A stretch of 64,000 bases of DNA from a virus. Position 1 is the first letter of the stretch. The number at the start of each line of letters is the position of its first letter. Position numbers and translations under genes: made by a program. The notes beneath the pieces were generated by a model, which was not told the origin of the DNA, searched no databases, and saw only the letters and a list, made by a program, of their open reading frames with translations. Shown here piece by piece: positions 1 to 63,029 of the stretch. The stretch lies in IMG/VR virus record IMGVR_UViG_3300045988_180399; one strand, given 5' to 3'.

Positions 1-118
1 CGGTATGCTGAGACCATACAAAGGAAGTATCACAAACATAATGAAAGTTCAGTCTGCACCCAACGGGCGCAGGCTTTTATATAAATCAAAAAATAACAAG
101 TAAGGAGAATCAGAAAAA
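1..118 (+). promoter_or_regulatory. Conserved structured leader module, copy A (5' truncated at window edge)
   Basis: Matches other copies: CGGTATGCTGAGACCATACAAAGGAAGTATCACAAACA...AAGTTCAGTC then hairpin (CTGCACCC/GGGCGCAG) + GGCTTTTATATA + AAGGAGA RBS; ATG at 119. Confidence 0.6.
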
Positions 119-13107: not shown

Positions 13108-13203
13108 AAAATCTGCGAAAAAATTGACTTTTGAACGAAAGGTTGTAATAATAAAAGTGTAGGGTATTAAGATGCCCTAAATCATGCAAAGGAGGCAATA
13201 GCA

Positions 13204-14545: not shown

Positions 14546-15418
14546 GTGAGCGATAAGCGTAACGAGGACTTGAAACAGTTCATTATTCCAGAAAATTTTA
14601 TGGGAGAATCCAGACTATTTCAAGGGCAGTTAAAGACACGCAATGTAGTGGAAGGAGGATTGATTTCGGGGGTATTGGCAATTTTCTTTTGGAATGTCAT
14701 TTCAGTTCCTATCACCACAAAAATATCCCTGGTCATATTCCTTTCCGCACCACTTGGCCTGCTTGGCTTGTTTGGAGTGAACGGCGACCCGCTGTCCACC
14801 TTTATCAAGATTTTCTTTTCATGGCGAAGAAAACGGGGGCTGATGCTGTTCAACAACGAAGCACGAGCGTTGAAGGAAGCCCCCATTAAGCTCATGATGT
14901 CGGAAGATGGCATGGGCGACAAACTCAGGGATTTTCTGGATGCCAGAAAGGAAAAGAAGGCCGCCGAACGGGCGAGTCAGGAGATGGTTGAAGGCAAAAC
15001 ATTCGAGTTTGCACCTGACAGTTCACTTGAGGGCAACTACATTGATGAAGATGACGATGGCGATGGAACGCCGAGCGGCAGCGCCGGCAATCGCCATAAA
15101 ACAAAGCACAACCAATCCTTCGTTGAAGTGGAAGTCCTGGAAGAGGATGACGATACCTCGTTGGAACTGGACGGATTTACGGAGGATATCGACAGCAGCA
15201 CTGTTGAGGAATCTGGCCCGCCGTTGCCGGATTTGGGCGGGGCCGACGATGTGGAATTGAGCAACGATGACACCAACGAGATGCCTGACGCCGAGGAACC
15301 TGACGATAATCCCCCCGCGTGTGAAACGCAACTGGAGCCTGCGGCAGAGGATGATTCTGACGCCGAAGGCGACGCGGATGGGGAAGATGAAGAACTTGAC
15401 GAGGAGGATTTGTTTTAA
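14546..15418 (+). CDS. TcpE/VirB3-like small membrane T4SS protein with long acidic C-terminal tail
   Basis: 290 aa, GTG start after GGAGG; two adjacent TM helices near N-terminus; stop overlaps VirB4 start (TAATG). Confidence 0.5.
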   Translation: MSDKRNEDLKQFIIPENFMGESRLFQGQLKTRNVVEGGLISGVLAIFFWNVISVPITTKISLVIFLSAPLGLLGLFGVNGDPLSTFIKIFFSWRRKRGLMLFNNEARALKEAPIKLMMSEDGMGDKLRDFLDARKEKKAAERASQEMVEGKTFEFAPDSSLEGNYIDEDDDGDGTPSGSAGNRHKTKHNQSFVEVEVLEEDDDTSLELDGFTEDIDSSTVEESGPPLPDLGGADDVELSNDDTNEMPDAEEPDDNPPACETQLEPAAEDDSDAEGDADGEDEELDEEDLF

Positions 15419-17910
15419 TGTCCAGAAAACTGAAACAGGTGATAAGCTGCCAATCTTTCTCGCCCATAAGTGATGTCCGTGACGGCATCATCGTCACGAA
15501 AGACGGGAAATTTGTGAAGTTGATGGAGTTCTCTCCCATTAACTACGGCTTACGGTCGAACGAGGATAAGAACATGATTACGGCACAATATGCGGCCGCA
15601 ATCCGCTCGTTTCCAAGCGTTGTCCAAATCAAAGTTCTGTCCAATCGAGCAAATGTCGAACACTATATTTCCGGCATGGTGGAAAGCGTGCGCCATGAAA
15701 AGAATGAAGGAACCCGTGAACTGATGCGGGAGCAAATCGACATGATGTCAGAATTTGGCGCATCGCAAGGCGTATCCCGTCGCTTCTTTCTCGCATTCCA
15801 GTACGAGGAAGAAGAGGGATTCGCACATCGTTCACCATCATGGAATGAAATCAGAAGCACCATTACGAGACAGGAGGACGCCATCAGAAGCAACCTTCGG
15901 GCCTGCGGCAACATTATGATTTCAAGGCCTCACGATGACGTCTATGTGCTTTCCACGCTTTACGATATCATGTCCAGAGCACAGAGCGCGAACCACCCGT
16001 TTGACGAGAGAATGGCGGATGTTGTTGCCCGATATACGGCGGCAAACATCGACTTCACGCGAGATAGCGCGGCGCATCTTCCTGTCAATGATGTGCTTGC
16101 TCCGTACTGCATTGATACGGAGTCAAGTCCCCGATATATCATCGTGGATGGCATCTACTATATGTGCTGCTATCTTCCGAGCAATGCCTATCCTGTGCGC
16201 GTTCTTGGCGGCTGGATGCAGCTGCTGGCAGGGCTGGGAGAGGGGATTGATGTGGATGTTTGGCTTCAGAAGATTTCACCGGAGAAGATTCAAACGGCAC
16301 TGCATCATGGCCTGCGGTTCAATGCAATGCGCTTCCGCAACACAGAAACCACCAGTAGCGACTACGATGATGTGAAGGCTGCGGTGGACGCAGGATACTA
16401 TCTGAAAAGCTCTCTCGCGGCCGGCGACGAATTTGCCTATATGTCTACAATGCTCACTATTACAGGTGAAAGCGAGCGAGAAATTGACTACAAATTCAAG
16501 GAAATCCGGCGCATTTTCATTGAGAGAGAATTGACTCTGAAGCCTTGTACTTTCCAGCAAGCGGAAGCGTTTCGCTCCACCATTCCCGTATGTGAGTATG
16601 ACAAAAACCTATTCCGTAAGAGCCGCAGAAATATTCTGTGTTCCGATTTTGCGTCCACCTATATGTTCACATCTTCCGAGCTGTGCGATAAGGACGGCGT
16701 GATGCTGGGCGTGGATGATGTGTTCAAATCACCGGTTCTGGTCAACTTCTTCGACCGCCAGCAATACATCAATGCCAACATCAATATTGTCGGCTCCTCT
16801 GGCTCCGGTAAGACCTTCACCACGCAGGTTCTGGCATTGAGAATGCGGGAGAAGGGGGTTCAAACCTTCATTATCGCGCCGCTGAAAGGCAAGGAGTTCC
16901 TGCCGCTTTGCGAGAAGGTCGGGGGTAGTTTCATTGAAATCAAACCTGGCTCCGGACAGAATATCAATATCATGGAGATACGCAAGAAGGAAGAGGGTAA
17001 CGTCTACGATGACGATGGTGCGTTGGTCACTTCCGGCTCGATTTTGGCACAGAAAATCCAGCAACTTCTCATTTTCTTTAAGCTGATTATCCCGGACATG
17101 ACGCCAGAAGAGGTGCAGTATGTGGATGACGCGCTGCTGAAAACTTACGGCAATTTCGGAATTACCCATAAGAACAAGAGCCTGTTGGACCCCAACGACA
17201 AGAAGAAATACCGCAAAATGCCTATCCTTTCGGACGTATATTCCGAGCTGGAAAAGATGGGCGCACCAGCAAATCGTTTGTGCCGTTTGCTGACGCGATA
17301 CACCACAGGTTCTGCATCTTCGTTCAACGCGCAAACCAATGTGAACCTTAACAACAAGTTCGTAGTGCTGGATGTTTCCGATGCGCAGAAAGACTTTCTT
17401 CCTGTGGCTATGTTCCTTGCATTGGATTATGTTTGGGATAAATGCAAAGAAAATCGGAACGTCAACAAGTGTGTTTTCATTGACGAGACTTGGCGCTTGG
17501 TCTGCTCCGATGCACCTATCGAAGCCGCCAATTTCGTGGTCGAAATCTTCCGTACTATCCGAGGCTTCGGCGGAAGTGCCGTCGCTGCCACGCAGAATAT
17601 CGCAGACTTCTTCTCTGCGGGAATTGGCACCGCCATCATCGGAAACGCCAAAATCAAAATGATTTTGCGCAGCGAAAAAGAGGAAGCAAACGCGATTGCG
17701 GATGCGATTGGTCTGACCGACGAAGAACTCAAGCGTGTAAAAACCATGGACCGTGGAACCTGTCTCCTGACCGCAAATGAGAACCACATTTTCATCAATG
17801 TTAAGGCGACGGATACGGAAGAATACCTGATAACGACTGACCCCAAAGCAAGAGCCGCTGCGAAGCGCCGAATTGAGCAGAAGCGTACTTGCGCTGCCTT
17901 CAGGCGCTGA
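15418..17910 (+). CDS. VirB4/TcpF/PrgJ-family conjugal transfer ATPase
   Basis: 830 aa; Walker A GSSGSGKT, Walker B-like VFIDETW, CagE/TrbE/VirB4 architecture. Confidence 0.8.
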   Translation: MSRKLKQVISCQSFSPISDVRDGIIVTKDGKFVKLMEFSPINYGLRSNEDKNMITAQYAAAIRSFPSVVQIKVLSNRANVEHYISGMVESVRHEKNEGTRELMREQIDMMSEFGASQGVSRRFFLAFQYEEEEGFAHRSPSWNEIRSTITRQEDAIRSNLRACGNIMISRPHDDVYVLSTLYDIMSRAQSANHPFDERMADVVARYTAANIDFTRDSAAHLPVNDVLAPYCIDTESSPRYIIVDGIYYMCCYLPSNAYPVRVLGGWMQLLAGLGEGIDVDVWLQKISPEKIQTALHHGLRFNAMRFRNTETTSSDYDDVKAAVDAGYYLKSSLAAGDEFAYMSTMLTITGESEREIDYKFKEIRRIFIERELTLKPCTFQQAEAFRSTIPVCEYDKNLFRKSRRNILCSDFASTYMFTSSELCDKDGVMLGVDDVFKSPVLVNFFDRQQYINANINIVGSSGSGKTFTTQVLALRMREKGVQTFIIAPLKGKEFLPLCEKVGGSFIEIKPGSGQNINIMEIRKKEEGNVYDDDGALVTSGSILAQKIQQLLIFFKLIIPDMTPEEVQYVDDALLKTYGNFGITHKNKSLLDPNDKKKYRKMPILSDVYSELEKMGAPANRLCRLLTRYTTGSASSFNAQTNVNLNNKFVVLDVSDAQKDFLPVAMFLALDYVWDKCKENRNVNKCVFIDETWRLVCSDAPIEAANFVVEIFRTIRGFGGSAVAATQNIADFFSAGIGTAIIGNAKIKMILRSEKEEANAIADAIGLTDEELKRVKTMDRGTCLLTANENHIFINVKATDTEEYLITTDPKARAAAKRRIEQKRTCAAFRR

Positions 17911-21644: not shown

Positions 21645-23384
21645 TTGCTTATGTTGGATTCCATCAAAGATTGGTTTGTTGACCGGCTTCATAAGTACAT
21701 GGATGCCGCACGGGAAATTGTGGAGAGCGACGAGGGGATAAGGTCTGCGGAAACCTACTACAGTACAGTCAAGGCAACACTGAAAAAGGAAACCGCACTG
21801 CTCACTAAGACCTTCTGCATCGGCATGGGCGGAATTCTGGCGACCCAGCTGTGCGGATGGCTCGCCGAACTGCTCGGTCACGGTATCCTCAAGGTGATTA
21901 GCGCTGTGCTCGCACTCCTCTGTGTCTTCATTGTGGCCTTCATTTTGCCGGCGGTTATCGGTTTGTTGTTAATGCTCCGAACCTTCTTCTTTGCAAACCG
22001 CAGCATGGCGGACGAGTGGCAGAAAGTCGTATCGGACGAACAGTATGCGGATTATGTGGAGCAGAGCAAATTCTTGACCATGACTCGCGACAAAAATCAG
22101 AGGACAAAATGCCTTATCTATCTGGCCGCCTACGTTGCGGCCTTCGTCCTGGTCGTCTCGTTGTGGAAGGCTCTCGGCGTCGTCTCCTATGTGTTCTGCT
22201 ACCTTGGCATTGTCCTGCTGATTCCGTATAGCGCCTATTATGTCTCCGTTCTGCTGAAAGCCCTGTTTGCGACCGGCAAGATGTACGAGTTCAAACCTGG
22301 CGTAAGCGGGAAGACTGCGCAGCATATCCGTGAGGAGCGGCAACGCAGGCAGGAAGAGGCCAGACGCCGGGAAGCGGAGGCGAAGCAGGCCGAGGAAGCA
22401 GCGATTGCTGCGGAGCGAAGCGGCATCATCGCCCATGCGCGACAGTACATCGACACGCTGGAGCAGACGCATCCGGAGTATTGTTGTGTCAGAGCACAGA
22501 AGAGAGCGGAAGTAAAAAGCTGGATAACGGAGAAGTGCAGGCTCAATATCCCAGATGCCTTCTGCGACGCTTACTCCGACCTCACGCTCGGTGAGTGTGT
22601 GCTTCTCGAAAAATCGAAAAACATCTTGCACTTGCGCAGCGAAATAGAGGCCAAACATTTTCAACTCAATAGTCAGCTTAATCTGATACTGGAAGGCGTG
22701 ACTGGTCTCGCGGAAAGCGTGTGCTCGAACTACCGCAATCAAATCGCCAGCGCGGCGGCGGAAGCCGCTCGTGTGGAGCAGGAGCAGGAGGAGCGGGAGC
22801 GCAAAGCACGAGAACTGGGCGAAGCCGGTGAGAGGGAAGTGAATTACAAACTCAAGTGGTGGCTTGCAGAGCACAGTGCATACCGCAGCATCGCGGCAGA
22901 CTGCGTGAGCAAGTACAGCGGAGGATGTATCCGTATCGCCGCATGGGACTATATGAAAGAGCCACAGGAAATCGACCACCTTCTCGTAGGGCCTGCCGGC
23001 ATCATTCATATTGAGACAAAAAACTACGTTGGAACCATCCGCGTCGATGACACGAACTATTGGGACAGGGATATGCGAAATGCGGGGCATTTCACCACAA
23101 CGGAAAGCCCCGCCTTCCAAGTTAAGCGTCACGCTGCCTTACTGTCGAAAATCGTTGGTGAGGATGTTCCGGTATGCGGCATCATCTGCCTTGCCAACCC
23201 AAATGTAAAATTGCAGGATGCGGACAACAGCGAAATCCCGGTCGTAAAACTCGGCGAGCTGCCGGAACTGCTTGACGCACTGGATAAATCCACCGCCAGT
23301 CCTCTAACTGCGCAGAAGGTAACAGAAGTGATTGGAAAAATCGAAAAGGCCAAAGTGAGAGGGGTTCCTCAGAATGACAAATAA
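21645..23384 (+). CDS. NERD (nuclease-related) domain protein with N-terminal TM helices and coiled-coil
   Basis: 579 aa; 3-4 TM helices (res 60-200), E/R/Q-rich coiled-coil, C-terminal NERD motif DHLLVGPAGIIHIETKNYVG. Confidence 0.6.
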   Translation: MLMLDSIKDWFVDRLHKYMDAAREIVESDEGIRSAETYYSTVKATLKKETALLTKTFCIGMGGILATQLCGWLAELLGHGILKVISAVLALLCVFIVAFILPAVIGLLLMLRTFFFANRSMADEWQKVVSDEQYADYVEQSKFLTMTRDKNQRTKCLIYLAAYVAAFVLVVSLWKALGVVSYVFCYLGIVLLIPYSAYYVSVLLKALFATGKMYEFKPGVSGKTAQHIREERQRRQEEARRREAEAKQAEEAAIAAERSGIIAHARQYIDTLEQTHPEYCCVRAQKRAEVKSWITEKCRLNIPDAFCDAYSDLTLGECVLLEKSKNILHLRSEIEAKHFQLNSQLNLILEGVTGLAESVCSNYRNQIASAAAEAARVEQEQEERERKARELGEAGEREVNYKLKWWLAEHSAYRSIAADCVSKYSGGCIRIAAWDYMKEPQEIDHLLVGPAGIIHIETKNYVGTIRVDDTNYWDRDMRNAGHFTTTESPAFQVKRHAALLSKIVGEDVPVCGIICLANPNVKLQDADNSEIPVVKLGELPELLDALDKSTASPLTAQKVTEVIGKIEKAKVRGVPQNDK

Positions 23385-25585: not shown

Positions 25586-26155
25586 GTGATTGAAGTGAGT
25601 ATAGATAAGAATGAAAAGAAGCCGACGGAAAAGAACCGCATCCGGAAGCAGCGTCGGGACTTCAAGCTATCTCAGCGGGAATTTTCCCGTGCCACCGGCA
25701 TCCCACTGGGGACGGTCCGGAACTGGGAGCAGGAAAAGTGCAACCCGCCGGAGTATCTCTACGGGATGCTGTATGAACTGCTAAGGAGGAATTCTATGCT
25801 GAACGTAAAGACGTTGAAGGTAATCTCCCTGCTGAATGAACTGGCAAAGAAAGAAAAGAACGGCATCAGGGAATTCAAAAATGCCAACGAGGGCAACAGG
25901 GAGACATTCGTTTTCTATGATGCGACGTCCTGCATGCGGCGGGAGGATGGTGCGCTGCTCTATAAGGTCCCATACGATATGTGCATCATCGACGACGAGA
26001 CAAACAAACATCACGACATCATCTCTTACTACGGAGACGATGACTATAGTGTAATGGTCGTTGATGACAGGGACGGAGAGCTTTTTCTGGAAGTACATTT
26101 TCCTGCCGAGGAAGAATTCATAGAATTCAGCAACGGGGAGTGGTACTTCGCGTGA
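25586..26155 (+). CDS. XRE-family HTH transcriptional regulator with C-terminal uncharacterised domain
   Basis: 189 aa (GTG start); HTH LSQREFSRATGIPLGTVRNWEQEK. Confidence 0.6.
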   Translation: MIEVSIDKNEKKPTEKNRIRKQRRDFKLSQREFSRATGIPLGTVRNWEQEKCNPPEYLYGMLYELLRRNSMLNVKTLKVISLLNELAKKEKNGIREFKNANEGNRETFVFYDATSCMRREDGALLYKVPYDMCIIDDETNKHHDIISYYGDDDYSVMVVDDRDGELFLEVHFPAEEEFIEFSNGEWYFA

Positions 26156-26186
26156 TTCACGCGAAGGCCATTTCTATACGCATTAA

Positions 26187-26215
26187 ATTGACTTTTTAGC
26201 TAATATGTGGTATAA
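26187..26215 (+). promoter_or_regulatory. sigma-A type promoter TTGACT-N17-TGTGGTATAAT
   Basis: -35 26187-26192, -10 26210-26215; shares 19-mer AGCTAATATGTGGTATAAT with promoter at 30916. Confidence 0.65.
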
Positions 26216-26262
26216 TAAAAGCGTGGAGTGAATGAAGAAAATTGCGAAAAGGATGTGTTTTC

Positions 26263-27734: not shown

Positions 27735-28178
27735 ATGCAGGACAAACTCTGGCTCTCTACCATTAGTGTCGGGCGCGAACTCGTGCTCGTACCGTATGGC
27801 AATTTTGCAAGGACCGCTGGCGGCAGAACACCAATCACAAGAACCGTTACAAAAGTCGGCAAGAAGTATTTCTACATCGGCAACGACGCCTTCAGCCGCA
27901 TGACCGGCGAGTATATTGACCGAGAGGAATTCAACGGCGGCTATGTGCTCTATCCGGATATGGCAGCCTATGAGGAAGCGGTCCGCACAGCAGACGAGCG
28001 CTCTGCCATCAAGAAAATCGTTGATGCTGATTTTTACGGATACGACCCATTCAGTTGCTGGCGAACATACACTGTCTCGGATGCGGCTGTCCATGAGATA
28101 TACCGCATTCTGGTTGAGTGCGGTGCTATCAAAACCAGTACGGAGGAGGGAAAGCCTGATGGCAAAAGCGCAGAATAG
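27735..28178 (+). CDS. hypothetical protein
   Basis: 147 aa ORF with GGAGGA RBS. Confidence 0.45.
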   Translation: MQDKLWLSTISVGRELVLVPYGNFARTAGGRTPITRTVTKVGKKYFYIGNDAFSRMTGEYIDREEFNGGYVLYPDMAAYEEAVRTADERSAIKKIVDADFYGYDPFSCWRTYTVSDAAVHEIYRILVECGAIKTSTEEGKPDGKSAE

Positions 28179-30813: not shown

Positions 30814-30915
30814 CTATTTGCGCACAAAGTCCTATGTGATATGCTGTATTTGAAGAACCCCCAAAAGCAAGCCGAGCGCTCCTGGAATTGGAGCGTTTAG
30901 CTTTTCTCAAACGAA

Positions 30916-30944
30916 TTGACAATTAAGCTAATATGTGGTATAAT
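30916..30944 (+). promoter_or_regulatory. sigma-A type promoter TTGACA-N17-TGTGGTATAAT
   Basis: -35 30916-30921, -10 30939-30944. Confidence 0.65.
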
Positions 30945-30973
30945 GTAAATATAGAGGTTCGGGGGGTGCTGCA

Positions 30974-35443: not shown

Positions 35444-36080
35444 GAACTCAACCGGACGGAAGGAATGCACCCGCCAGCTTTCCGCCATGCTGGAGCGACA
35501 CATCGACCCGCGCAACGACCCACGCATCTACTGGGCGAAAGAGGTCACATTCGATTACTCGACCAATCACAAAATCCGCGTGGACTATATGCGCTTCCAG
35601 CCGCTCAACAATACGACCTCCGGCATTGAGAAGGGGGACTTCTACGCCTATGAGGTGAAGTCCTCCGTGGAGGATTTTAAGTCTCCTAACGGACACAATT
35701 TCATCGCGGACTACAACTACTACGTTATGCCCGCAGACGTCTTCGAAGCGGTGAAGGATACTGTGCCATACGGCGTCGGTGTGCTTTGCCCGGACGGCGG
35801 GCATCTGCGATGCGTGAGGAAAGCCGTGAGGAAGGACCGAACCAGACCGGTCAGCGAGATGCTGCTCATGCTGTGGCGCAGCTCACGAAGAGATTTTCTC
35901 ACCACTGACGTGGCCCCGGTAATGCACACCAGCTGGGCGCATCTTGGCGGGGACGAGTGGTGTTGCCCTGCGTGCGGCTTTGTCATTACCACTGAGGGCA
36001 GTTGGGACAAGCCTACCAAAAAATACTGCGAGGATTGCGGGGCCAAGATGGACGGAGGTGCTGACCATGAATCTGGTTGA
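35415..36080 (+). CDS. PD-(D/E)XK nuclease-like protein (MmcB/DUF1052-like) with C-terminal zinc ribbon
   Basis: 221 aa; D...E(Y)EVKSS catalytic-like motif, C-terminal CCPACG...CEDCG. Confidence 0.35.
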   Translation: MTRRCPVMTENSTGRKECTRQLSAMLERHIDPRNDPRIYWAKEVTFDYSTNHKIRVDYMRFQPLNNTTSGIEKGDFYAYEVKSSVEDFKSPNGHNFIADYNYYVMPADVFEAVKDTVPYGVGVLCPDGGHLRCVRKAVRKDRTRPVSEMLLMLWRSSRRDFLTTDVAPVMHTSWAHLGGDEWCCPACGFVITTEGSWDKPTKKYCEDCGAKMDGGADHESG

Positions 36081-36357
36081 TATTGATAAATTGGGCGTGG
36101 GGCGGTGCAGCAAAGATGTTCTCCCTGCGGCGTATTGTGCTGGTTGGAACGGCTTACTTGGCTTGCTCGAAAAAGCCCCCACTGTGGATGCCGTGCCGGT
36201 GGTGCGATGTGAGGGCTGTGTATTTTCGCAATCAGACGGTTGGGTTTGCGGTGGTACATCTCTCATGCCGCAGCATCGAACATTTCCAAATAGTTTTTGC
36301 AGCGACGGAGAAAGGAAAAACAAAAATGACAAAGAAACAAACGACAGACAAGATTAA
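36067..36357 (+). CDS. small Cys-rich hypothetical protein
   Basis: 97 aa, ATG overlaps upstream stop (ATGA); CxxC..CxGC pattern. Confidence 0.25.
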   Translation: MNLVDIDKLGVGRCSKDVLPAAYCAGWNGLLGLLEKAPTVDAVPVVRCEGCVFSQSDGWVCGGTSLMPQHRTFPNSFCSDGERKNKNDKETNDRQD

Positions 36358-36724
36358 CCAGCCTGAGTTTGCCCCGGAGGAGTGGCGGAAGGCGGCCATT
36401 ATGTACGATACATCCTTTGCCTGGTGTAAGAATCAAATTTCAGCCTGGGGTAAGAATCAAATTTCATTTACACCGGGCTTTAACGAGATGTTCGATGAAG
36501 CGCTGGACACACTTCCTGAGCGAAACCGCGATATCGTCCAAAAGTATTTTCGTGACAGAATGACGTTTTCGCAAATCGCCGACCTGCACGGCACCAGCAG
36601 AAGCATAGTTCGCCATCTGTGTATCTGGACGGTATGGAAGGTCATGAATTTGATTCTGCTGCGAGAAGGAAGCAGCCAAAATGCCGCGCCACAAACAGGC
36701 GGAGGAACTGAAGGTGGGTATTGA
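36326..36724 (+). CDS. small sigma-70 region-4 (HTH) domain protein / ECF-like sigma factor fragment
   Basis: 132 aa from ATG 36326 (RBS GGAGAAAGG); LDTLPERNRDIVQKYFRDRMTFSQIADLHGTSRSIVRHL = sigma region 4.2-like HTH; contains 24-nt in-frame tandem duplication. Confidence 0.45.
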   Translation: MTKKQTTDKINQPEFAPEEWRKAAIMYDTSFAWCKNQISAWGKNQISFTPGFNEMFDEALDTLPERNRDIVQKYFRDRMTFSQIADLHGTSRSIVRHLCIWTVWKVMNLILLREGSSQNAAPQTGGGTEGGY

Positions 36725-37765: not shown

Positions 37766-37794
37766 TTGACAAGTAAGCTATTGTGTGGTATAAT
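37766..37794 (+). promoter_or_regulatory. sigma-A type promoter TTGACA-N17-TGTGGTATAAT
   Basis: -35 37766-37771, -10 37789-37794. Confidence 0.65.
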
Positions 37795-37818: not shown

Positions 37819-38938
37819 GGTTGACATCACGAATACCAGTAATTTAGCCGCTGACCGTGCGCTTGCCTATGAAGCCATTGAAAGGCAGCCTGAAACAGAA
37901 GAAATCGCAGCTTCGAATGAACAGGAGACCGAAGCGAAGCAGCCGGGAAATATCGGCGACCATGTGGCGATGTATCTCAGCCAAATTGGCAGCATCCCCA
38001 TTATGCCGCAGGTGGAAGCGAATCGCTGTATTGAAAAAGTGCAGAAGGGGAATGCCGCTGCCGAACAGCTCGAAACGCTGCGGGTGATTGCCGAGGAGAG
38101 CGGGAATGCAGTTGACCCCGAAATCAAGAAAGACCTGATGAAGGCCATAGAAGCAGGAAGACGGGCGAAAGATAAGGTTGTTGAGGGCAATCTTCGGCTT
38201 GTTGTGTCCATCGCAAAGAAATATATAAACTCAGCCGATTCTATGGTGTTCATGGACCTCATTCAGGAGGGCAACATTGGCCTCATGCGTTCCATCGACT
38301 CTTTTGACATTTCGAGGAATGTGAAGTTTTCCACCTACGCAACCTTCTGGATAAGGCAAAACATCACAAGAGCGCTTGCCACGACGGACCCAGCCATTCG
38401 CAAGCCCATCTATGTTGCGGAGGGCAGGCGGAGCGTCAATAATGCAAAAGAACAAATGCAACAAAAAGGCTTACCTTGTGATGACCCTTTAGAAATCGCA
38501 AAATACATGGAGGGGGATGCGTGGGATTCCCTTTCAAAAAGGGAGCAGCAGAAAAAACTGCGCATCATCCAACACTCGCTCCAGTACCGGAAGCCGGACT
38601 CGTTGGATGCGCCCGTCAATTCGGACGCCGCAAGCGATTCCAACACACCGCTTTCGGAATTCATCCCAAGCCATAACGAGTGGGATAACCCGGAAATTTC
38701 AACGTCAGGGAAGGCACTATGGGAAACGATGGACAAAATCCTGCACGATATGCCCGCACGAGACGCCTGTGTGCTTCGCTTACGATTCGGATTGGAGGAT
38801 GGTTGTGCTTATACCCTCAAAGAAATCGGGGACGAAATGGACTTAACGCGAGAGCGTGTCCGTCAGGTTACAGATAAAACACTCGATAAGCTACGCAACG
38901 GAAAGGCAGGGAAGATGCTTCAGGACTTTCTTGAATAA
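37819..38938 (+). CDS. RNA polymerase sigma-70 family sigma factor (regions 1.2, 2, 3, 4)
   Basis: ~373 aa; likely GTG start 37819 after GAAGGGGGGG (ORF open from 37766); region 1.2 DHVAMYLSQIGSIPIMP, region 2 NLRLVVSIAKKY...LIQEGNIGLMRSIDSFD...FSTYATFWIRQ, region 4 LTRERVRQVTDKTLDKLR. Confidence 0.8.
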
Positions 38939-38941
38939 GAA

Positions 38942-38970
38942 ACGCCGCCCAGATGGGCGGCGTTTTTTTG
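38942..38970 (+). terminator. rho-independent terminator
   Basis: ACGCCGCCC-AGAT-GGGCGGCGT + T7. Confidence 0.8.
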
Positions 38971-39044: not shown

Positions 39045-39213
39045 TCTTCGGTTCTCAGGTTCCCAACATTAAAATAGGCGTGTTTCCATATTTGCCGGTA
39101 TGCTCAGAGCATACAAAGGAAGTATCTCAAACACAAAGAAAGTTCAGTCAGCGTCCGTTGCGGATGCTGGCTTTTATATATAAAAAATTCATAAACAAAA
39201 AGGAGAAATGAAC
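39045..39213 (+). promoter_or_regulatory. Conserved structured leader module, copy B
   Basis: GGTTCTCAGGTTCC box; hairpin-1 GTATGCTC-A-GAGCATAC; AAGTATCTCAAACACAAAGAAAGTTCAGTCAGCG; hairpin-2 TCCG-TTGC-CGGA in CAGCGTCCG..CGGATGCTG; GGCTTTTATATATA; AAAAGGAGAAATGAAC ATG. Confidence 0.7.
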
Positions 39214-39579
39214 ATGAAAGCAATGATGTTTAAGAGGGGTTTCGGTGACGAAACAAAGTGGAAAGAGGTCTGCGCGGAGCTTGGGCTGCCGGAAGATACG
39301 GAGCAGGTTGAGTTGTCCGTATCCGCAACAAAGGTCCGTACCAGCCAAAACCGCAGTTGGGAAGCGACCGACGAGGAGATGTCCCGAATTTGGGAACGCC
39401 TCGGCTCGTATTTCTTGCGCTGCGAGAGCATCTCCAGAACGAACATTCGCGTTTTCTGTGGCGGCGGAGATTCCTTTTCCGTTGTTCGCGGCACAACGCA
39501 GCCTGGATTCGTCGAGGTGGATGGACGGCTGATGGACTATGAAGACTTTGAAGCCTGGCTGTACCAGATGGCAGCTTGA
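39214..39579 (+). CDS. hypothetical protein
   Basis: 122 aa. Confidence 0.45.
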   Translation: MKAMMFKRGFGDETKWKEVCAELGLPEDTEQVELSVSATKVRTSQNRSWEATDEEMSRIWERLGSYFLRCESISRTNIRVFCGGGDSFSVVRGTTQPGFVEVDGRLMDYEDFEAWLYQMAA

Positions 39580-41019: not shown

Positions 41020-41029
41020 CAACTGAAGC

Positions 41030-41063
41030 GCCGGTGGATGAAAATATCCGCCGGCGCTTTTTC
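41030..41063 (+). terminator. rho-independent terminator
   Basis: GCGCCGG...CCGGCGC + TTTTT. Confidence 0.7.
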
Positions 41064-41089: not shown

Positions 41090-41257
41090 TATTCTTAGGT
41101 TCTCAATCAGGAAATAGGTGATTTTTTCTCTTCTGCCGGTATGCTGAAATCATACAAAAGAAGTATCTCAAACACAAAGAAAGTTCAGTCAGCGTCCGTT
41201 GCGGATGCTGGCTTTTATATATAAAAATTTCATAAACAAAAAGGAGAAACGAAAAAA
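41090..41257 (+). promoter_or_regulatory. Conserved structured leader module, copy C
   Basis: Same block order as copy B; 3' 95 nt nearly identical to copy B. Confidence 0.7.
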
Positions 41258-44223: not shown

Positions 44224-44230
44224 TAAAAAA

Positions 44231-44259
44231 GCGCCGCCCGTAATGGACGGCGCTTTTTC
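44231..44259 (+). terminator. rho-independent terminator
   Basis: GCGCCGCCCG-TAAT-GGACGGCGC + TTTTT. Confidence 0.8.
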
Positions 44260-44269
44260 TTTGCAGTTC

Positions 44270-44444
44270 TCCGGTTCTTCAGTTCTCAGGTTCCTGGAAG
44301 GTGAATGCGGCAATTTCCACTTCCGCCGGTATGCTGAGACCATACCAAAGAAGTATCACAAACAAAAAAGAAAGTTCAGTCAGCGCCCGCGTGGGTGCTG
44401 GCTTTTATATATCACATAACCATCACAAAAAAGGAGAAATGAAA
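44270..44444 (+). promoter_or_regulatory. Conserved structured leader module, copy D
   Basis: GGTTCTTCAGTTCTCAGGTTCC; hairpin-1 GGTATG..CATACC; hairpin-2 CAGCGCCCG-CGTG-GGTGCTG (compensatory changes vs copy B). Confidence 0.7.
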
Positions 44445-45191
44445 ATGGAGATTTATGTAAATTACCTCGCCATTGAGGTCACTCGTCGCTGCAACATGAA
44501 ATGCGAACACTGCCTGCGCGGAGATGCGCAAAATCTTGACATCTCAACCGCAGTTCTGTCGGGCATCGCTAAGCATATCCACCCTGCTTCCGTCATTTTC
44601 ACGGGCGGCGAGCCGTCTTTGAATGTTCCGGCCATCAAGCGGTACTTTGAGCTTGCGGAGCGTTATGACACGATGCCGGCTGCTTTCTATGTCGCCACCA
44701 ACGGAGCGACGTCGAAGGAGCAGATGCGCGACCTCGCGCTGACGCTGCTGGAATCGTATGCTAAGATGGAAGAGCAGGATATGTGCGAGGTCGATGTCTC
44801 TGTGGATATGTTCCACGAGGCGTTCCGCGACAATGACAACGCGAAAATTCTGAGCGGCTTGTCCTTCTTCGGCCAGGGTAAACAGCATTCGGTCAAGGAT
44901 GACGATTTGAATTGGCTGTTAAATACCGGACGTGCCAACAAGAACGGCATCGGCGTAAGAGCACCGGAGGTGCTCAGGACCGACATGGACGAGCTGGTAA
45001 CGGATTACTCCACAGAGTACAACAGCATTGCCTTCGATACGCTCTACATTGCCGCAAACGGTAATGTGGTAGACGGCTGTGACAGCAGTTACGAGGATAT
45101 CGACGACGAGGAGAACGTGATTTGCAAGGTCAACCAGCTTCAGAAGAAAGTGAAAGACTATGTGAAGAACGCCGATTCTCAAATCTCATAA
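44445..45191 (+). CDS. radical SAM enzyme (small, QueE/activase-like size)
   Basis: 249 aa; CNMKCEHC (CxxxCxxC) cluster motif at residues 15-22; SAM-binding glycine motif IFTGGEPSL. Confidence 0.65.
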   Translation: MEIYVNYLAIEVTRRCNMKCEHCLRGDAQNLDISTAVLSGIAKHIHPASVIFTGGEPSLNVPAIKRYFELAERYDTMPAAFYVATNGATSKEQMRDLALTLLESYAKMEEQDMCEVDVSVDMFHEAFRDNDNAKILSGLSFFGQGKQHSVKDDDLNWLLNTGRANKNGIGVRAPEVLRTDMDELVTDYSTEYNSIAFDTLYIAANGNVVDGCDSSYEDIDDEENVICKVNQLQKKVKDYVKNADSQIS

Positions 45192-48204: not shown

Positions 48205-48210
48205 ACCTGA

Positions 48211-48243
48211 GCGCCGCCCCTTTGTGGGCGGCGCTTTTTCTTT
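48211..48243 (+). terminator. rho-independent terminator
   Basis: GCGCCGCCC-CTTTGT-GGGCGGCGC + TTTTTCTTTTT. Confidence 0.8.
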
Positions 48244-48264: not shown

Positions 48265-48438
48265 TTGAGGTTCCTCGGTTCTTAGGTTCCAATTTGCAAA
48301 ATGCGGAGTTTTCCGTGCCTGCCGGTATGCTGAGACCATACAAAAGAAGTATCACAAACACAAAGAAAATTCAGTCAGCGTCCATACGGATACTGGCTTT
48401 TATATATCAAAAAAATTTCAAAAAAGGAGAATTAAAAA
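48265..48438 (+). promoter_or_regulatory. Conserved structured leader module, copy E
   Basis: GAGGTTCCTCGGTTCTTAGGTTCC; GCCGGTATGCTGAGACCATACAAAAGAAGTATCACAAACACAAAGAAAATTCAGTCAGCG; hairpin-2 TCC-ATAC-GGA; GGCTTTTATATAT. Confidence 0.7.
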
Positions 48439-52603: not shown

Positions 52604-52794
52604 TGCAAAATCCTGCAAAACAGCGCATACGGTGCGTACAACCTCATGTGCTACAATCCTGACACGGGCTGCGGCGTGGTCGTACTTACCTCCGGAGCCA
52701 GCGGAAAGAAAGATACCGCCGGCATCTACGCTGTGTGCGGAGAAATCAGTAACCTGCTTTTTGGCGCAAACCCCTGAATTATCTTTCCGGAACA

Positions 52795-52828
52795 GAAGCG
52801 TCGCCCATCACGGGCGACGCTTTTCTTT
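52795..52828 (+). terminator. rho-independent terminator (second, tandem)
   Basis: AGCGTCGCCC-ATCAC-GGGCGACGCT + TTTCTTTG. Confidence 0.7.
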
Positions 52829-53004
52829 GTGGTTCTTTGGTTCTCAGGTTCCTTGAAATAGAATAAAGCGTTTTCTTCATCCGCCGGTATGCTGAGACCA
52901 TACAAAGGAAGTATCACATACATAAAGAAAGTTCAGTCAGCATCCCTTGCGGATGCTGGCTTTTATATATCACCTAATAATTCACGAAAAGGAGAAATGA
53001 AAAA
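52829..53004 (+). promoter_or_regulatory. Conserved structured leader module, copy F
   Basis: GGTTCTTTGGTTCTCAGGTTCC; hairpin-1; hairpin-2 perfect CAGCATCC-CTTGC-GGATGCTG; GGCTTTTATATAT; AAAAGGAGAAATGAAAAA ATG. Confidence 0.7.
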
Positions 53005-60761: not shown

Positions 60762-60982
60762 CTGGGGTTCTTGAGTTCTCAGGTTCCGAACAGACAGGTT
60801 TTGAAAATTGAAAATCGTAGGGTATGATGGCGTTACATTAAAGAAGTATCTCTCATGAAATTGACTTGATACTTCGCTGGGACAAGCGCATTCGGAACTG
60901 TCCGCAGGGAAGAATCGCTTGTCCCATTTTTTTAATGTGCAAGCTACAACCACAAAAATTATTTCGAAAAGGAGAAAAAATC
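60762..60982 (+). promoter_or_regulatory. Divergent copy G of leader module (5' half conserved; 3' half replaced by TTGACT box and long hairpin+T7)
   Basis: GGTTCTTGAGTTCTCAGGTTCC ... GTAGGGTATGATGGCGTTACATTAAAGAAGTATC; then GAAGTATC..TTGACT..GATACTTC inverted repeat; GGGACAAGCG...CGCTTGTCCC+T7 at 60879-60934; RBS AAAAGGAGAAAAAATC ATG. Confidence 0.55.
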
Positions 60983-61633
60983 ATGTCTGAGTACACCAAC
61001 AACCTGAACGTCGTCTCCACCTACAAGGGCGAAAAGAGCGTCAGCATCACCGGCACGTTCCAGTGCGGCATTCACTTCCCCAAGAGTGGGGCAAAGCCGT
61101 TCAAGGTCATCGAGCGCACATCCAAGAACAACAAGCAGTACAAGCAGATTGCCTGTACTGTTGTTATCTCCCCGGATGACCGCAAGAACAACAACGGCAA
61201 TCCTTTCTCTTCTGTCTATTACGATGGGAAGTACCTGACCTTCAAGGAGTTCCTGGAAACCACCGGCGTCGAGCTTATCAAGGGCAAGCTGTATGCCGGC
61301 GTGTTCATGGACCGCAGCACGATGGGCCTGTATCAGGTCATGGGCGACCCCAATTTGACCTTCAAGCAGAACATCGTTCTCTCCGGCGAACTGTCCGTCT
61401 ATACGGATAAGGAAGGGAAGAAGCGTGCCGCTTTCGGCCGCGTGTCCCTGTTTGCCAAGGACCATGTGGGAGCCGATAAGGTGGAAAAAGAGAACGCAAA
61501 CGTCATGCTGGAGAGCGGCGGCAACGCGCAGGCGTCCGGCGGTAGTCCTGCCGCATACGCTTCCGCAGCGCCCGCTATGAACGATGACGGCTTTATCGAC
61601 ATCTCTGATGATGACGGTGAGCTGCCGTTCTGA
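60983..61633 (+). CDS. single-stranded DNA-binding protein-like (OB-fold) with SSB-type acidic C-terminal tail
   Basis: 216 aa; G/S/A-rich linker and C-terminus ...ISDDDGELPF resembling SSB DDDIPF protein-interaction tail. Confidence 0.5.
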   Translation: MSEYTNNLNVVSTYKGEKSVSITGTFQCGIHFPKSGAKPFKVIERTSKNNKQYKQIACTVVISPDDRKNNNGNPFSSVYYDGKYLTFKEFLETTGVELIKGKLYAGVFMDRSTMGLYQVMGDPNLTFKQNIVLSGELSVYTDKEGKKRAAFGRVSLFAKDHVGADKVEKENANVMLESGGNAQASGGSPAAYASAAPAMNDDGFIDISDDDGELPF

Positions 61634-62857: not shown

Positions 62858-63029
62858 AGAATTCTTGGGTTCTTGGGTTCCTTGTGCAAAAATGGGCCAT
62901 TCCTCATATTTGTCGGTATGCTAAGAACATACCAAGGAAGTATCACAAACAAAAAGAAAGTTCAGTCAGCGGTTATAGACCATTGGCTTTTATATAAATA
63001 AACAGCTATTGTAAAGGAGAAATGAAAAA
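62858..63029 (+). promoter_or_regulatory. Conserved structured leader module, copy H
   Basis: TTCTTGGGTTCTTGGGTTCC; hairpin-1 GGTATG-CTAAGAA-CATACC; AAGTATCACAAACAAAAAGAAAGTTCAGTCAGCG; GGCTTTTATATAAATA; AAAGGAGAAATGAAAAA ATG. Confidence 0.65.

What the first reader, a model, noticed from the sequence alone, without database searches (positions are those of the whole stretch)
39094..39207. Leader module substructure: two hairpins with compensatory covariation and a terminator-like U-tract just upstream of the RBS
Within each copy the order is: a GGTTCTCAGGTTCC box; hairpin 1 (GGTATG-loop-CATACC, becoming a perfect 8-bp stem GTATGCTC/GAGCATAC in copy B); a conserved AAGTATCACAAACA...AAAGAAAGTTCAGTCAGCG stretch; hairpin 2; then GGCTTTTATATAT, about 30 nt before the SD. 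Hairpin 2 changes sequence between copies while keeping its pairing: CAGCGTCCG/CGGATGCTG in B and C, CAGCGCCCG/CGGGTGCTG in D, CAGCATCC/GGATGCTG in F, CTGCACCC/GGGCGCAG in A. That points to selection for structure in RNA or ssDNA rather than for a protein operator sequence. A stem followed by a U-run immediately 5' of the RBS is the geometry of an intrinsic terminator or attenuator. The divergent copy G has an analogous long hairpin plus T7 at 60879-60934. Two readings are possible: (a) a conditional antitermination or attenuation switch controlling every cassette, or (b) an ssDNA-folded promoter (Frpo/ssi-like) active on the transferred strand early after conjugation.
Basis: partly seen in the sequence, partly recalled or inferred. 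Interest (0 to 1): 0.85.

Follow-up and report, generated by a model that had tools for sequence, protein, structure and literature searches.

The report
Repeated terminator-bearing leader before gene cassettes
A roughly 180-base unit repeated in front of seven operons of a gut-bacterial conjugative element carries a terminator-like RNA hairpin just before the ribosome-binding site, so it most likely acts as one shared transcription-attenuation switch for all the cassettes rather than as a single-stranded-DNA promoter.

Summary
The window holds seven near-identical leader modules, all on the + strand. Public data hold 113 distinct copies, from human-gut metagenomes and one Oscillospiraceae genome. 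Hairpin 2 is an 11-12 bp stem followed by TTTATATAT, 20-25 nt before a strong Shine-Dalgarno sequence. It is kept by compensatory changes at 5-6 pairs. Its non-Watson-Crick pairs are G.T on the sense strand 45 times and A.C 6 times, so the sense RNA is the strand that folds. Hairpin 1 shows no compensatory covariation; its sequence is nearly invariant. Five of six modules follow a strong canonical terminator, so each cassette is its own transcription unit. Upstream lie GGTTCY boxes at an 8-bp period, probably protein sites, and a conserved nAnAAT. The best reading is a promoter-proximal leader with an intrinsic-terminator attenuator. A possible antiterminator pairs the 5' half of hairpin 1 with the 5' arm of hairpin 2; it is compatible with the sequences but does not covary. 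The ssDNA-promoter reading is not supported. The motif is not in Rfam, PLSDB or the searched papers. The closest concepts are the pLS20/p576 EGeRS sequences and the pLS20 zipper-type attenuator. The transcription start and the trans-acting factor are untested.

The parts
38940..38969 (+). Canonical intrinsic terminator of the upstream sigma-factor gene. It is context: it insulates module B from upstream transcription.
   Evidence: Fold of -25.6 kcal/mol, z -5.1, GC stem followed by U7. Equivalent terminators precede modules C, D, E and F.
39050..39063 (.). Tandem GGTTCY boxes at an 8-bp period. They are probably a protein operator or activator site overlapping the putative -35.
   Evidence: Of 77 RGTTCY hexamers in the window, 19 lie in the 75 nt upstream of module cores (0.6 expected), and 8-nt-period tandems occur only there. 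Two module classes carry the boxes in inverted orientation (GGAAC), which points to recognition of double-stranded DNA.
39070..39075 (+). Putative -10 element (TAAAAT; family consensus nAnAAT). It would put the transcription start near 39082.
   Evidence: AAT is conserved at -23..-21 from the core in nearly all copies, including the diverged ones. The promoter scan places TTGGTT-16-TAGAAT/TAAAAT here in 14 copies. Weak and inferred.
39096..39207 (+). Leader core of module B. These are essentially the coordinates of the finding.
   Evidence: Covariance-model hit of 129.5 bits.
39098..39114 (+). Hairpin 1: GTATG-N7-CATAC in most copies, a 7-bp stem in B. The sequence is invariant. It is a candidate recognition hairpin or anti-antiterminator.
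   Evidence: 98% of cells pair, no compensatory change, seven G.U variants, five breaks.
39115..39145 (+). Invariant A-rich tract: AAAGGAAGTATCNCAAACA-AAAGAAAGTTC.
   Evidence: Nearly invariant in 64 distinct copies. GAAGTATC is kept even in copy G and in the variant that lacks the terminator.
39146..39172 (+). Hairpin 2: a 12-bp stem with a 3-nt loop, the terminator hairpin.
39173..39181 (+). U-rich tail, TTTATATAT.
   Evidence: Conserved in almost all of the 113 copies. It meets the terminator-scan criterion.
39200..39216 (+). Shine-Dalgarno sequence AAGGAGAA and the start codon of the first cassette gene.
1..109 (+). Module A core (hairpin 2 at 51-75). Its upstream part is cut off by the window start. 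It heads the ERF annealing-protein, primase-like and T4SS gene block.
   Evidence: 115 bits.
41137..41248 (+). Module C core (hairpin 2 at 41187-41213).
   Evidence: 128 bits.
44327..44438 (+). Module D core (hairpin 2 at 44378-44403). It heads the radical-SAM cassette.
   Evidence: 123 bits.
48323..48431 (+). Module E core (hairpin 2 at 48373-48398, with one C.A mismatch).
   Evidence: 120 bits.
52885..52996 (+). Module F core (hairpin 2 at 52935-52961). It heads the YqaJ/NERD nuclease, RecD2-like helicase and SLH protein cassette.
   Evidence: 128 bits.
62914..63021 (+). Module H core (hairpin 2 at 62964-62988).
   Evidence: 106 bits.
60766..60990 (+). Divergent unit G. It has the boxes, a degenerate hairpin 1 and GAAGTATC, then an unrelated, stronger terminator (60878-60927 plus T7), then the SD and ATG at 60984.
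   Evidence: Not a covariance-model hit.

Best explanation
The stretch is the 5' leader of a cassette operon. It is one of seven near-identical leaders in a conjugative element of human-gut Oscillospiraceae.

The full repeated unit has this order: the strong terminator of the preceding operon; 2-5 GGTTCY boxes at an 8-bp period, which are protein sites overlapping a weak -35; a conserved nAnAAT -10-like hexamer; and then the leader RNA. The leader holds a small invariant hairpin 1, an invariant A-rich tract, and an 11-12 bp hairpin 2 followed by UUUAUAUAU, 20-25 nt before a strong Shine-Dalgarno sequence.

Hairpin 2 with its U tail acts as an intrinsic terminator inside the leader, that is, as an attenuator. 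RNA polymerase that starts in the module either stops there or reads on into the cassette. The decision is most likely made by the invariant upstream part. Its 5' half (GGUAUGCUGA) can pair with the 5' arm of hairpin 2 (UCAGCNUCC). That antiterminator excludes both hairpin 1 and the terminator. A factor that recognises and stabilises hairpin 1 and the tract would free the terminator arm and shut the cassette off. Because every cassette carries the same leader, all cassettes form one regulon switched at the level of elongation.

Shown: the repeat family; selection for hairpin 2 in the sense strand; terminator geometry; insulation of each unit by upstream terminators.

Inferred: the transcription start; that termination really occurs; the antiterminator; the factor.
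For: There are seven copies in the window and 113 distinct copies elsewhere, always directly upstream of an SD and of at least 14 different genes.

Hairpin 2 has 5-6 pairs with compensatory changes. It is about 95% paired against 27-42% in slid controls, and no shuffle of 500 reaches the covariation score.

The folding is strand-asymmetric. There are 45 G.T against 6 A.C in 26 stem variants. The sense strand is more stable in 26 of 30 variants, at -16.0 against -11.4 kcal/mol.

The geometry is that of a terminator, and the scan ranks these copies among the best + strand sites of the region.

In copy G the hairpin is replaced by an unrelated, stronger terminator at the same position before the SD.

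Strong terminators precede 5 of 6 modules, so a promoter must lie inside each module.

The boxes are about 30-fold enriched upstream of the cores and occur in both orientations. AAT is conserved at a fixed distance.

The alternative helix pairs in 88-89% of cells against 24-51% in slid controls. It is the minimum-energy fold of the nascent RNA in about 20 of 32 copies. Copies with a strengthened hairpin 1, such as B, do not adopt it.

The pLS20 zipper-type attenuator gives a precedent: a weak conserved upstream stem-loop competes with an antiterminator (PMC13401043).
Against: There are no transcript data, so the start site is unknown.

No canonical sigma-A promoter is conserved in the module. 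About 30% of copies lack the key A at position 2 of the putative -10.

The antiterminator helix shows no covariation, with one double change in 64 sequences. Its register was derived from the consensus.

The terminator conformation is thermodynamically much more stable (-16 to -29 against -8 to -12 kcal/mol), so the switch would have to be kinetic.

The U tract is interrupted (UUUAUAUAU).

Copy G and the variant L006:4491-4595 keep hairpin 1 and GAAGTATC without the partner arm. The invariant part therefore has some function independent of that pairing.

No trans-acting factor was identified.

The copies are closely related, so the shuffle statistics overstate independence.
Confidence: 0.55

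Rival explanations
1. This is a loading site for processive antitermination of the nut, put, canT or conAn2 kind. The invariant hairpin 1 and tract modify RNA polymerase, alone or with an element protein, so that it ignores hairpin 2 and later terminators. Hairpin 2 is the checkpoint that unmodified polymerase cannot pass.
For: About 60 nt upstream of a terminator are invariant. The element also contains many strong terminators. The 5' part is kept when the terminator is exchanged or lost. There are precedents in Gram-positive conjugative elements (PMC8191782, PMC11658703).
Against: The known RNA antiterminators are larger and highly structured (canT is about 340-450 nt, PMC11658703), whereas here only a 5-bp hairpin is predicted. 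There is no Rfam match. No NusG-, Q- or N-like protein was found among the proteins scanned. Each cassette ends in a strong terminator that evidently is meant to work.
Confidence: 0.15
2. Hairpin 2 is a constitutive insulator or terminator of a short non-coding transcript. Either the module makes an sRNA of about 90 nt with a conserved A/G-rich seed, or it simply blocks read-through. The cassette would then be expressed from a start at or after TATATAT.
For: TTTATATAT is conserved beyond what a U tract needs. It lies at a distance from the SD typical of a -10 element. EGeRS1 of pLS20 likewise blocks read-through and has no detectable promoter (PMC8708921).
Against: TATATA and its registers lack the T at position 6 or the A at position 2 of a sigma-A -10. 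The -35 position falls in the variable, covarying stem. No TG extension is present. The module already follows a strong terminator, so a second insulator would be redundant.
Confidence: 0.12
3. This is a post-transcriptional element. Hairpin 2 with its AU-rich tail would be an RNase processing or stabilising site, a ribosome standby platform, or a binding site for an RNA chaperone, without termination. Candidate binders are the ProQ_C-like protein at 27735-28178 and the S1 protein at 13204-14457.
For: The structure is in the sense RNA and lies close to the SD. The element encodes S1-domain and ProQ_C-like proteins.
Against: A GC-rich 12-bp stem directly followed by UUU is expected to terminate. 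Copy G carries a textbook terminator at the same place. Nothing links those proteins to the motif.
Confidence: 0.1
4. This is a single-stranded DNA element of the transferred strand. It would be an Frpo/ssi-like promoter on the template strand, or an sso-like priming site if the + strand is the one transferred.
For: It is a conjugative element. The modules are multi-copy and lie before cassettes that include an ERF annealing protein and a primase-like gene. All genes are co-oriented.
Against: The - strand fold is no better than shuffles (z -0.57). The stems are at most 12 bp and cannot hold -35 and -10 boxes. The 45 sense-strand G.T pairs become A.C on the template strand. The fixed position before the SD and the U tail have no role in priming.
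Confidence: 0.05

Closest known systems
EGeRS2 of plasmid p576 (pLS20 family clade II; PMC6294495, PMC8708921)
   Same: A conserved unit is repeated in front of several accessory or establishment operons of a Gram-positive conjugative element. Short tandem repeats abut the -35. The operons downstream are variable.
   Different: EGeRS2 has a strong sigma-A promoter and TTATCCCnnTTATCCC operators for an RHH repressor, and it has no leader terminator. Here the boxes are GGTTCY at an 8-bp period, no strong promoter is visible, and a covarying terminator hairpin lies in the leader. There is no sequence similarity.
EGeRS1 of pLS20 (PMC8708921)
   Same: It is repeated and structured, sits immediately upstream of the RBS of each establishment operon, has no obvious sigma-A promoter, and blocks read-through in one orientation.
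   Different: EGeRS1 is 420-750 bp with many inverted repeats, and its mechanism is unknown. This module is about 180 bp with two short hairpins. There is no sequence similarity.
Zipper-type attenuator cATT of the pLS20 conjugation operon (PMC13401043)
   Same: A weak upstream stem-loop with a conserved sequence, a central segment, and an intrinsic terminator just before the first gene. An upstream sequence is complementary to the terminator's 5' arm, which gives a mutually exclusive antiterminator.
   Different: cATT is a single copy in a 456-nt leader, with a long central stem that is extended like a zipper. There the 3' arm of the upstream hairpin pairs with the terminator, and the two conformations have similar energies. 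Here the element is about 85 nt and present in 7-10 copies, the 5' arm and loop do the pairing, the central stem is marginal, and the terminator is far more stable.
Frpo/ssi ssDNA promoters of F-like and IncI plasmids (PMC11541004, PMC9849209)
   Same: Repeated non-coding units in front of leading-region operons of a conjugative element.
   Different: Those are long imperfect hairpins in the transferred template strand that rebuild -35 and -10 boxes. No such fold exists here, and the structure is selected on the opposite (sense) strand.
Tn916 T1 insulator terminator with the canT antiterminator RNA (PMC11658703)
   Same: A conjugative element of Firmicutes uses terminators to insulate its genes and an upstream cis RNA to get past them.
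   Different: canT is about 340-450 nt, single-copy and processive. There is no sequence or Rfam relation.

Membership tests
Intrinsic (Rho-independent) terminator | A G+C-rich stem of at least 5 bp with a loop of 3-8 nt | tested here: met
   The stem is 11-12 bp with 6-7 GC pairs and a loop of 3-5 nt. The hairpin alone averages -16 kcal/mol.
Intrinsic (Rho-independent) terminator | A U-rich tract starting 0-2 nt after the stem on the transcribed strand | tested here: met
   UUUAUAUAU follows directly and is conserved in about 110 of 113 copies. The tract is interrupted, so efficiency is uncertain.
Intrinsic (Rho-independent) terminator | RNA 3' ends are produced at the U tract | not testable with these tools
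   Needs Term-seq or in vitro transcription.
Transcription attenuator with competing structures | An alternative helix that sequesters one arm of the terminator | tested here: inconclusive
   The helix between alignment columns 2-11 and the 5' arm pairs in 88-89% of cells against 24-51% when slid. It is the minimum-energy fold of nascent RNA in about 20 of 32 copies. It shows no covariation.
Zipper-type attenuator (cATT, pLS20) | A long central stem-loop that is extended by pairing of the upstream hairpin's 3' arm with the terminator's 5' arm | tested here: not met
   The central stem is only 6 invariant pairs with bulges. The pairing uses the 5' arm and loop of hairpin 1 and leaves a 12-nt internal loop.
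Zipper-type attenuator (cATT, pLS20) | [quoted passage not shown] | not tested
   No ConAn1 sequence or model was available. The module occurs before at least 14 different genes.
EGeRS2 (p576) | A strong sigma-A promoter flanked by TTATCCCnnTTATCCC dual motifs | tested here: not met
   No conserved canonical promoter. The boxes are GGTTCY at an 8-bp period.
EGeRS1 (pLS20) | A conserved region of 420-750 bp with multiple inverted repeats, at least 60% identical to pLS20 EGeRS1 | tested here: not met
   The module is about 180 bp. A blastn search of PLSDB, which I assumed holds the pLS20-family plasmids, gave one unrelated 39-nt hit at the E-value limit and nothing else.
Frpo/ssi ssDNA promoter | A long imperfect hairpin in the template (transferred) strand that holds -35 and -10 boxes | tested here: not met
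   The - strand DNA fold is -14.9 kcal/mol, z -0.57, with only 4-7 bp stems.
Any described RNA family (Rfam 15) | A match at the family's gathering score | tested here: not met
   No hit over the whole window. Only chance-level hits (E>=1.2) on the module.
Leader-peptide (ribosome-mediated) attenuator | A conserved short ORF in the leader | tested here: not met
   The ORF from the ATG in GGTATGCT varies in frame and length: it stops after two codons (ML*) in 8 copies, has no ATG in 4, and there is no SD.

The most novel reading that the evidence does not exclude
The seven to ten identical leaders form an RNA-level zygotic-induction switch. In an established host, an element-encoded factor binds the invariant hairpin 1 and tract, so the terminator forms and every cassette is silent. 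In a naive recipient the factor is absent and the nascent leader falls into the antiterminated fold. All establishment and anti-defence cassettes are then expressed in a burst. This would be the first attenuation-based control of establishment genes. It would also offer a tractable model for the still unexplained promoter-less EGeRS1-type leaders of Gram-positive plasmids.
Probability: 0.15. Interest if true: 0.8.

Novelty: new variant of a known kind. Interest (0 to 1): 0.6.

Why it matters
Little is known about how conjugative elements of Gram-positive gut bacteria time the expression of the variable cassettes that help them establish in a new host. Only a repressor-operator system (p576) and an unexplained structured leader (pLS20 EGeRS1) have been described. 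This is a compact RNA motif supported by covariation. It is not in Rfam and is common in human-gut metagenomes, with 113 distinct copies. It marks the start of every cassette in one family of Oscillospiraceae elements. It gives a simple marker for annotating cassette boundaries. It defines a regulon of mostly unknown genes that are candidates for establishment or anti-defence functions. It is also a small construct, about 180 bp, on which termination, antitermination and operator function can be tested directly.

Tried and rejected
- Megablast and blastn of the region and the module against PLSDB: nothing useful.
- Rfam at gathering and E-value thresholds: nothing.
- Full-text search for the motif strings: only chance primer matches.
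- Conserved leader peptide starting at the ATG in GGTATGCT: rejected, because frame and length are not conserved.
- Antisense or trans-RNA partner for the invariant tract elsewhere in the window: no reverse-strand match.
- Canonical sigma-A promoter at a consistent position: only TTGGTT-16-TAGAAT/TAAAAT in a minority of copies. TATGCT, CATACA, AAGTAT and TATATA were examined as -10 candidates by eye and rejected for lack of a conserved -35 or of key bases.
- A module-specific promoter for the element's own sigma factor: rejected. The sigma is RpoD-like, and by eye its region 2.4 and 4.2 contact residues match those of sigma-A.
- Sigma-H, sigma-E, sigma-K and ECF consensus sequences, compared from memory: the spacings do not fit.
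- A 'hairpin 0' between the boxes and the core: stems exist in many copies but in inconsistent registers, so it is left as a note.
- Copy G as a true family member: rejected by the covariance model.
- Six pattern hits in coding regions of unrelated contigs: discarded as chance.
- Identification of a relaxase or oriT, to fix which strand is transferred: none found in the window.

Full report
WHAT IS THERE

The finding lies in an intergenic unit of about 180 bp that is repeated in the window. A repeat search found six full copies and one copy cut by the window start. A covariance model built from 28 distinct copies finds exactly seven hits at 106-130 bits: 1-109, 39096-39207, 41137-41248, 44327-44438, 48323-48431, 52885-52996 and 62914-63021. 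All are on the + strand, and the next hit scores 16 bits. The two conserved tract patterns each give 7 matches where about 0 are expected.

- GGTTCTCAGGTTCC boxes at 39050-39063
- hairpin 1 at 39098-39114
- an invariant A-rich tract at 39115-39145
- hairpin 2 at 39146-39172
- TTTATATAT at 39173-39181
- AAGGAGAA at 39200-39207, with the start codon at 39208 or 39214

CONTEXT

The window is a conjugative element of the Firmicutes type. It carries a type IV coupling protein (10106-12382), a VirB4-like ATPase (15418-17910), pilin-like proteins and a CHAP/lysozyme protein. All long ORFs lie on the + strand.

An RpoD-like sigma gene (37826-38938) has a perfect TTGACA-17-TATAAT promoter. It ends in a strong terminator just upstream of module B.

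Module A heads an ERF-type annealing protein, a primase-like gene and the T4SS block. Modules B-H head cassettes of mostly unknown genes. These include a radical-SAM protein, a YqaJ/NERD nuclease, a RecD2-like helicase and an SLH surface protein.

Modules B, C, D, E and F each follow a canonical GC-rich terminator within 20-60 nt (-20 to -28 kcal/mol, U5-U7). Each cassette is therefore its own transcription unit, and a promoter must lie inside the module. That last step is an inference.

RELATIVES

Exact-pattern scans found the motif in one genome of the species collection, Oscillospiraceae bacterium CM18GR_63, with ten copies on one 571-kb contig. They also found it in about ten IMG/VR contigs and in more than 100 human-gut metagenome stretches.

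After six chance hits in coding regions were removed, 113 distinct 250-nt copies remain. They sit in front of at least 14 different downstream genes. Some modules are chimeric, which shows recombination within modules.

Nothing similar exists in PLSDB, in Rfam or in the searched literature.

HAIRPIN 2

On 28 distinct copies, five pairs change on both sides. For example, one pair is U-A in 14 copies, G-C in 9 and C-G in 4. Cells pair 95% of the time against 27-42% when the 3' partner is slid. None of 500 shuffles reaches the observed covariation score. On 64 distinct model-aligned copies the figures are six pairs and 94.6%. That alignment is fitted to the structure and the copies are related, so these figures are not probabilities. 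The slid controls and the several pair types at single positions are the stronger argument.

Across 26 distinct stem sequences, the first 11 pairs hold 233 Watson-Crick pairs, 45 G.T, 6 A.C and 2 others. The sense strand is the more stable in 26 of 30 variants, at -16.0 against -11.4 kcal/mol. Selection therefore acts on the sense strand. That means the mRNA leader, or less likely + strand ssDNA.

The tail TTTATATAT is nearly invariant. The consensus scan lists four of the copies among the best + strand terminator-like sites of the region.

In the divergent unit G, the homologous hairpin is replaced by an unrelated, stronger terminator (60878-60927 plus U7) at the same place before an SD and ATG. 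This non-homologous replacement argues that termination is the selected property.

HAIRPIN 1

GTATG-N7-CATAC pairs in 98% of cells, but no pair changes on both sides. The variants are wobble-compatible (C to U, A to G; seven G.U cells) or breaking (five cells).

In copy B the inverted repeat is 8+8 with one base between the arms. As a hairpin it is 7 bp with a 3-nt loop.

Hairpin 1 and the following roughly 35 nt are conserved as sequence, which suggests recognition by a factor.

UPSTREAM PART

RGTTCY hexamers are about 30-fold enriched in the 75 nt before the cores: 19 of 77 against 0.6 expected. Tandems at an 8-nt period occur only there. Two module classes, including A, carry boxes in inverted orientation (GGAAC) within the same 8-bp phasing. 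That points to recognition of double-stranded DNA by a protein, not recognition of RNA.

An AAT at -23..-21 from the core is conserved in nearly all copies, including the diverged ones. A is present at -25 in at least 70% of copies. This gives a -10-like nAnAAT, which is TAAAAT at 39070-39075 in B. The middle box (TTGGTT) sits at the -35 position, and the predicted start is near 39082. This promoter is weak and unproven. No canonical sigma-A promoter is conserved anywhere in the module.

By eye, the element's own sigma has the DNA-contact residues of sigma-A. It therefore does not explain a special promoter.

A POSSIBLE SWITCH

The 5' half of hairpin 1 (GGUAUGCUGA) is complementary to the 5' arm of hairpin 2 (UCAGCNUCC).

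This helix pairs in 88-89% of cells against 24-51% in slid controls, but it shows no covariation: one double change in 64 sequences. It is the minimum-energy fold of the nascent RNA, before the 3' arm of hairpin 2 is made, in about 20 of 32 copies, at -8 to -12 kcal/mol. Copies with a strengthened hairpin 1, such as B, keep hairpin 1 instead.

The complete leader always prefers hairpin 1 plus the terminator, at -15 to -29 kcal/mol. Any switch would therefore be kinetic.

The logic resembles the zipper-type attenuator recently shown for the pLS20 conjugation operon (PMC13401043). There, a weak upstream stem-loop with a conserved sequence competes with an antiterminator that forms by default, and a binding factor is suspected. 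The geometry differs, however; see the membership table.

Two natural variants keep hairpin 1 and GAAGTATC without the partner arm: unit G, and L006:4491-4595, which has no terminator. The invariant part must therefore have a further role.

THE ssDNA-PROMOTER READING

As single-stranded DNA, the template (-) strand of module B folds no better than shuffles (-14.9 kcal/mol, z -0.57), and only into 4-7 bp stems. The + strand gives z -1.67.

A 12-bp stem cannot carry -35 and -10 boxes. The abundant sense-strand G.T pairs would be A.C mismatches on the template strand.

I could not locate a relaxase or oriT in the window, so the transferred strand is unknown. Nothing else supports this reading.

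OTHER IDEAS TESTED

A leader peptide from the ATG inside hairpin 1 is not conserved. No antisense partner of the tract exists in the window.

Candidate trans factors were noted but are not linked to the motif:
- a protein with only sigma region 4 (36077-36724)
- an Xre-type HTH protein (25586-26155)
- an S1-domain protein (13204-14457)
- a ProQ_C-like protein (27735-28178)

COMPARISON WITH KNOWN SYSTEMS

The concept closest in biology is the 'establishment gene regulatory sequences' of the pLS20 plasmid family. These are conserved units repeated before several variable operons (PMC8708921, PMC6294495). EGeRS2 is a strong promoter with RHH operators. EGeRS1 is a structured region of 420-750 bp with no promoter and an unknown mechanism. 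The present module shares the logic and the position, but neither the sequence nor the architecture. It adds a leader terminator supported by covariation.

It is therefore a new variant of a known kind: a compact, multi-copy attenuator leader.

VERDICT

Reading (a) is the best-supported explanation, at about 0.55. Reading (b) is unlikely, at about 0.05. The main gaps are the transcription start, proof of termination, and the identity of the factor.

Noticed in passing
37766-37794 and 37826-38938: The conjugative element carries its own RpoD-like sigma factor. By eye its -10 and -35 contact residues look like those of sigma-A. It is driven by a perfect TTGACA-17-TGnTATAAT promoter. Its role is unknown.
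   Followed up: partly
13121-13165, 26185-26229, 30913-30957: Three related sigma-A-type promoters (AAATTGAC-N17-TAATAAT/TATAAT) lie in front of the S1-domain gene, the UDG block and the UvrD/PcrA-like helicase. They form a second class of transcription start in the element, distinct from the modules.
   Followed up: no
60766-60990: Unit G keeps the boxes, a degenerate hairpin 1 and GAAGTATC. It has swapped hairpin 2 for an unrelated, stronger terminator (60878-60927 plus T7). GAAGTATC pairs with a downstream GATACTTC in an 8-bp hairpin.
   Followed up: partly
L006:4491-4595 (- strand): This natural module variant has an intact hairpin 1 and tract but no terminator hairpin or U tract before the SD. 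It could serve as a natural 'constitutive' control.
   Followed up: no
L029:1608-1717, L028:4459-4569: These modules are chimeric. In one, the upstream half is of one class and the core of another. In the other, the 5' and 3' arms of hairpin 2 come from different classes, which gives an extra G.T. The modules therefore appear to serve as recombination points for cassette shuffling. At least 14 different genes follow the motif.
   Followed up: partly
39064-39095 and the equivalent stretch in other copies: A possible weak 'hairpin 0' lies between the boxes and the core, with a purine-rich 5' arm and a pyrimidine-rich 3' arm. Related copies show a path from G-C to A.C to A-U. The registers differ between copies, so it remains unconvincing.
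   Followed up: partly
38940-38969, 41025-41060, 44226-44258, 48209-48236, 52794-52824: The terminators that precede the modules are themselves related in sequence (GCGCCGCCC...GGGCGGCGC followed by T5-7). The repeated unit may therefore include the end of the previous cassette.
   Followed up: no
27735-28178 and 13204-14457: A ProQ C-terminal-like protein and a 417-aa S1-domain protein are encoded in the transfer region. Both are possible RNA-binding factors.
   Followed up: no
L008-L043 (IMG/VR contigs): Close relatives of this element are filed in IMG/VR as viral contigs, yet the window carries coupling-protein, VirB4, pilin and CHAP genes. They are probably misclassified conjugative elements.
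   Followed up: no
17639-17683 and 22606-22650: A two-copy 45-nt direct repeat, 73% identical and ending in GCGCAGCGAAA-AGAGG, lies within the transfer region.
   Followed up: no
44301-45191: The mechanical ORF of the radical-SAM gene runs open through the whole of module D from a GTG at 44301. The real start is most likely the ATG after the SD at 44431-44447.
   Followed up: partly
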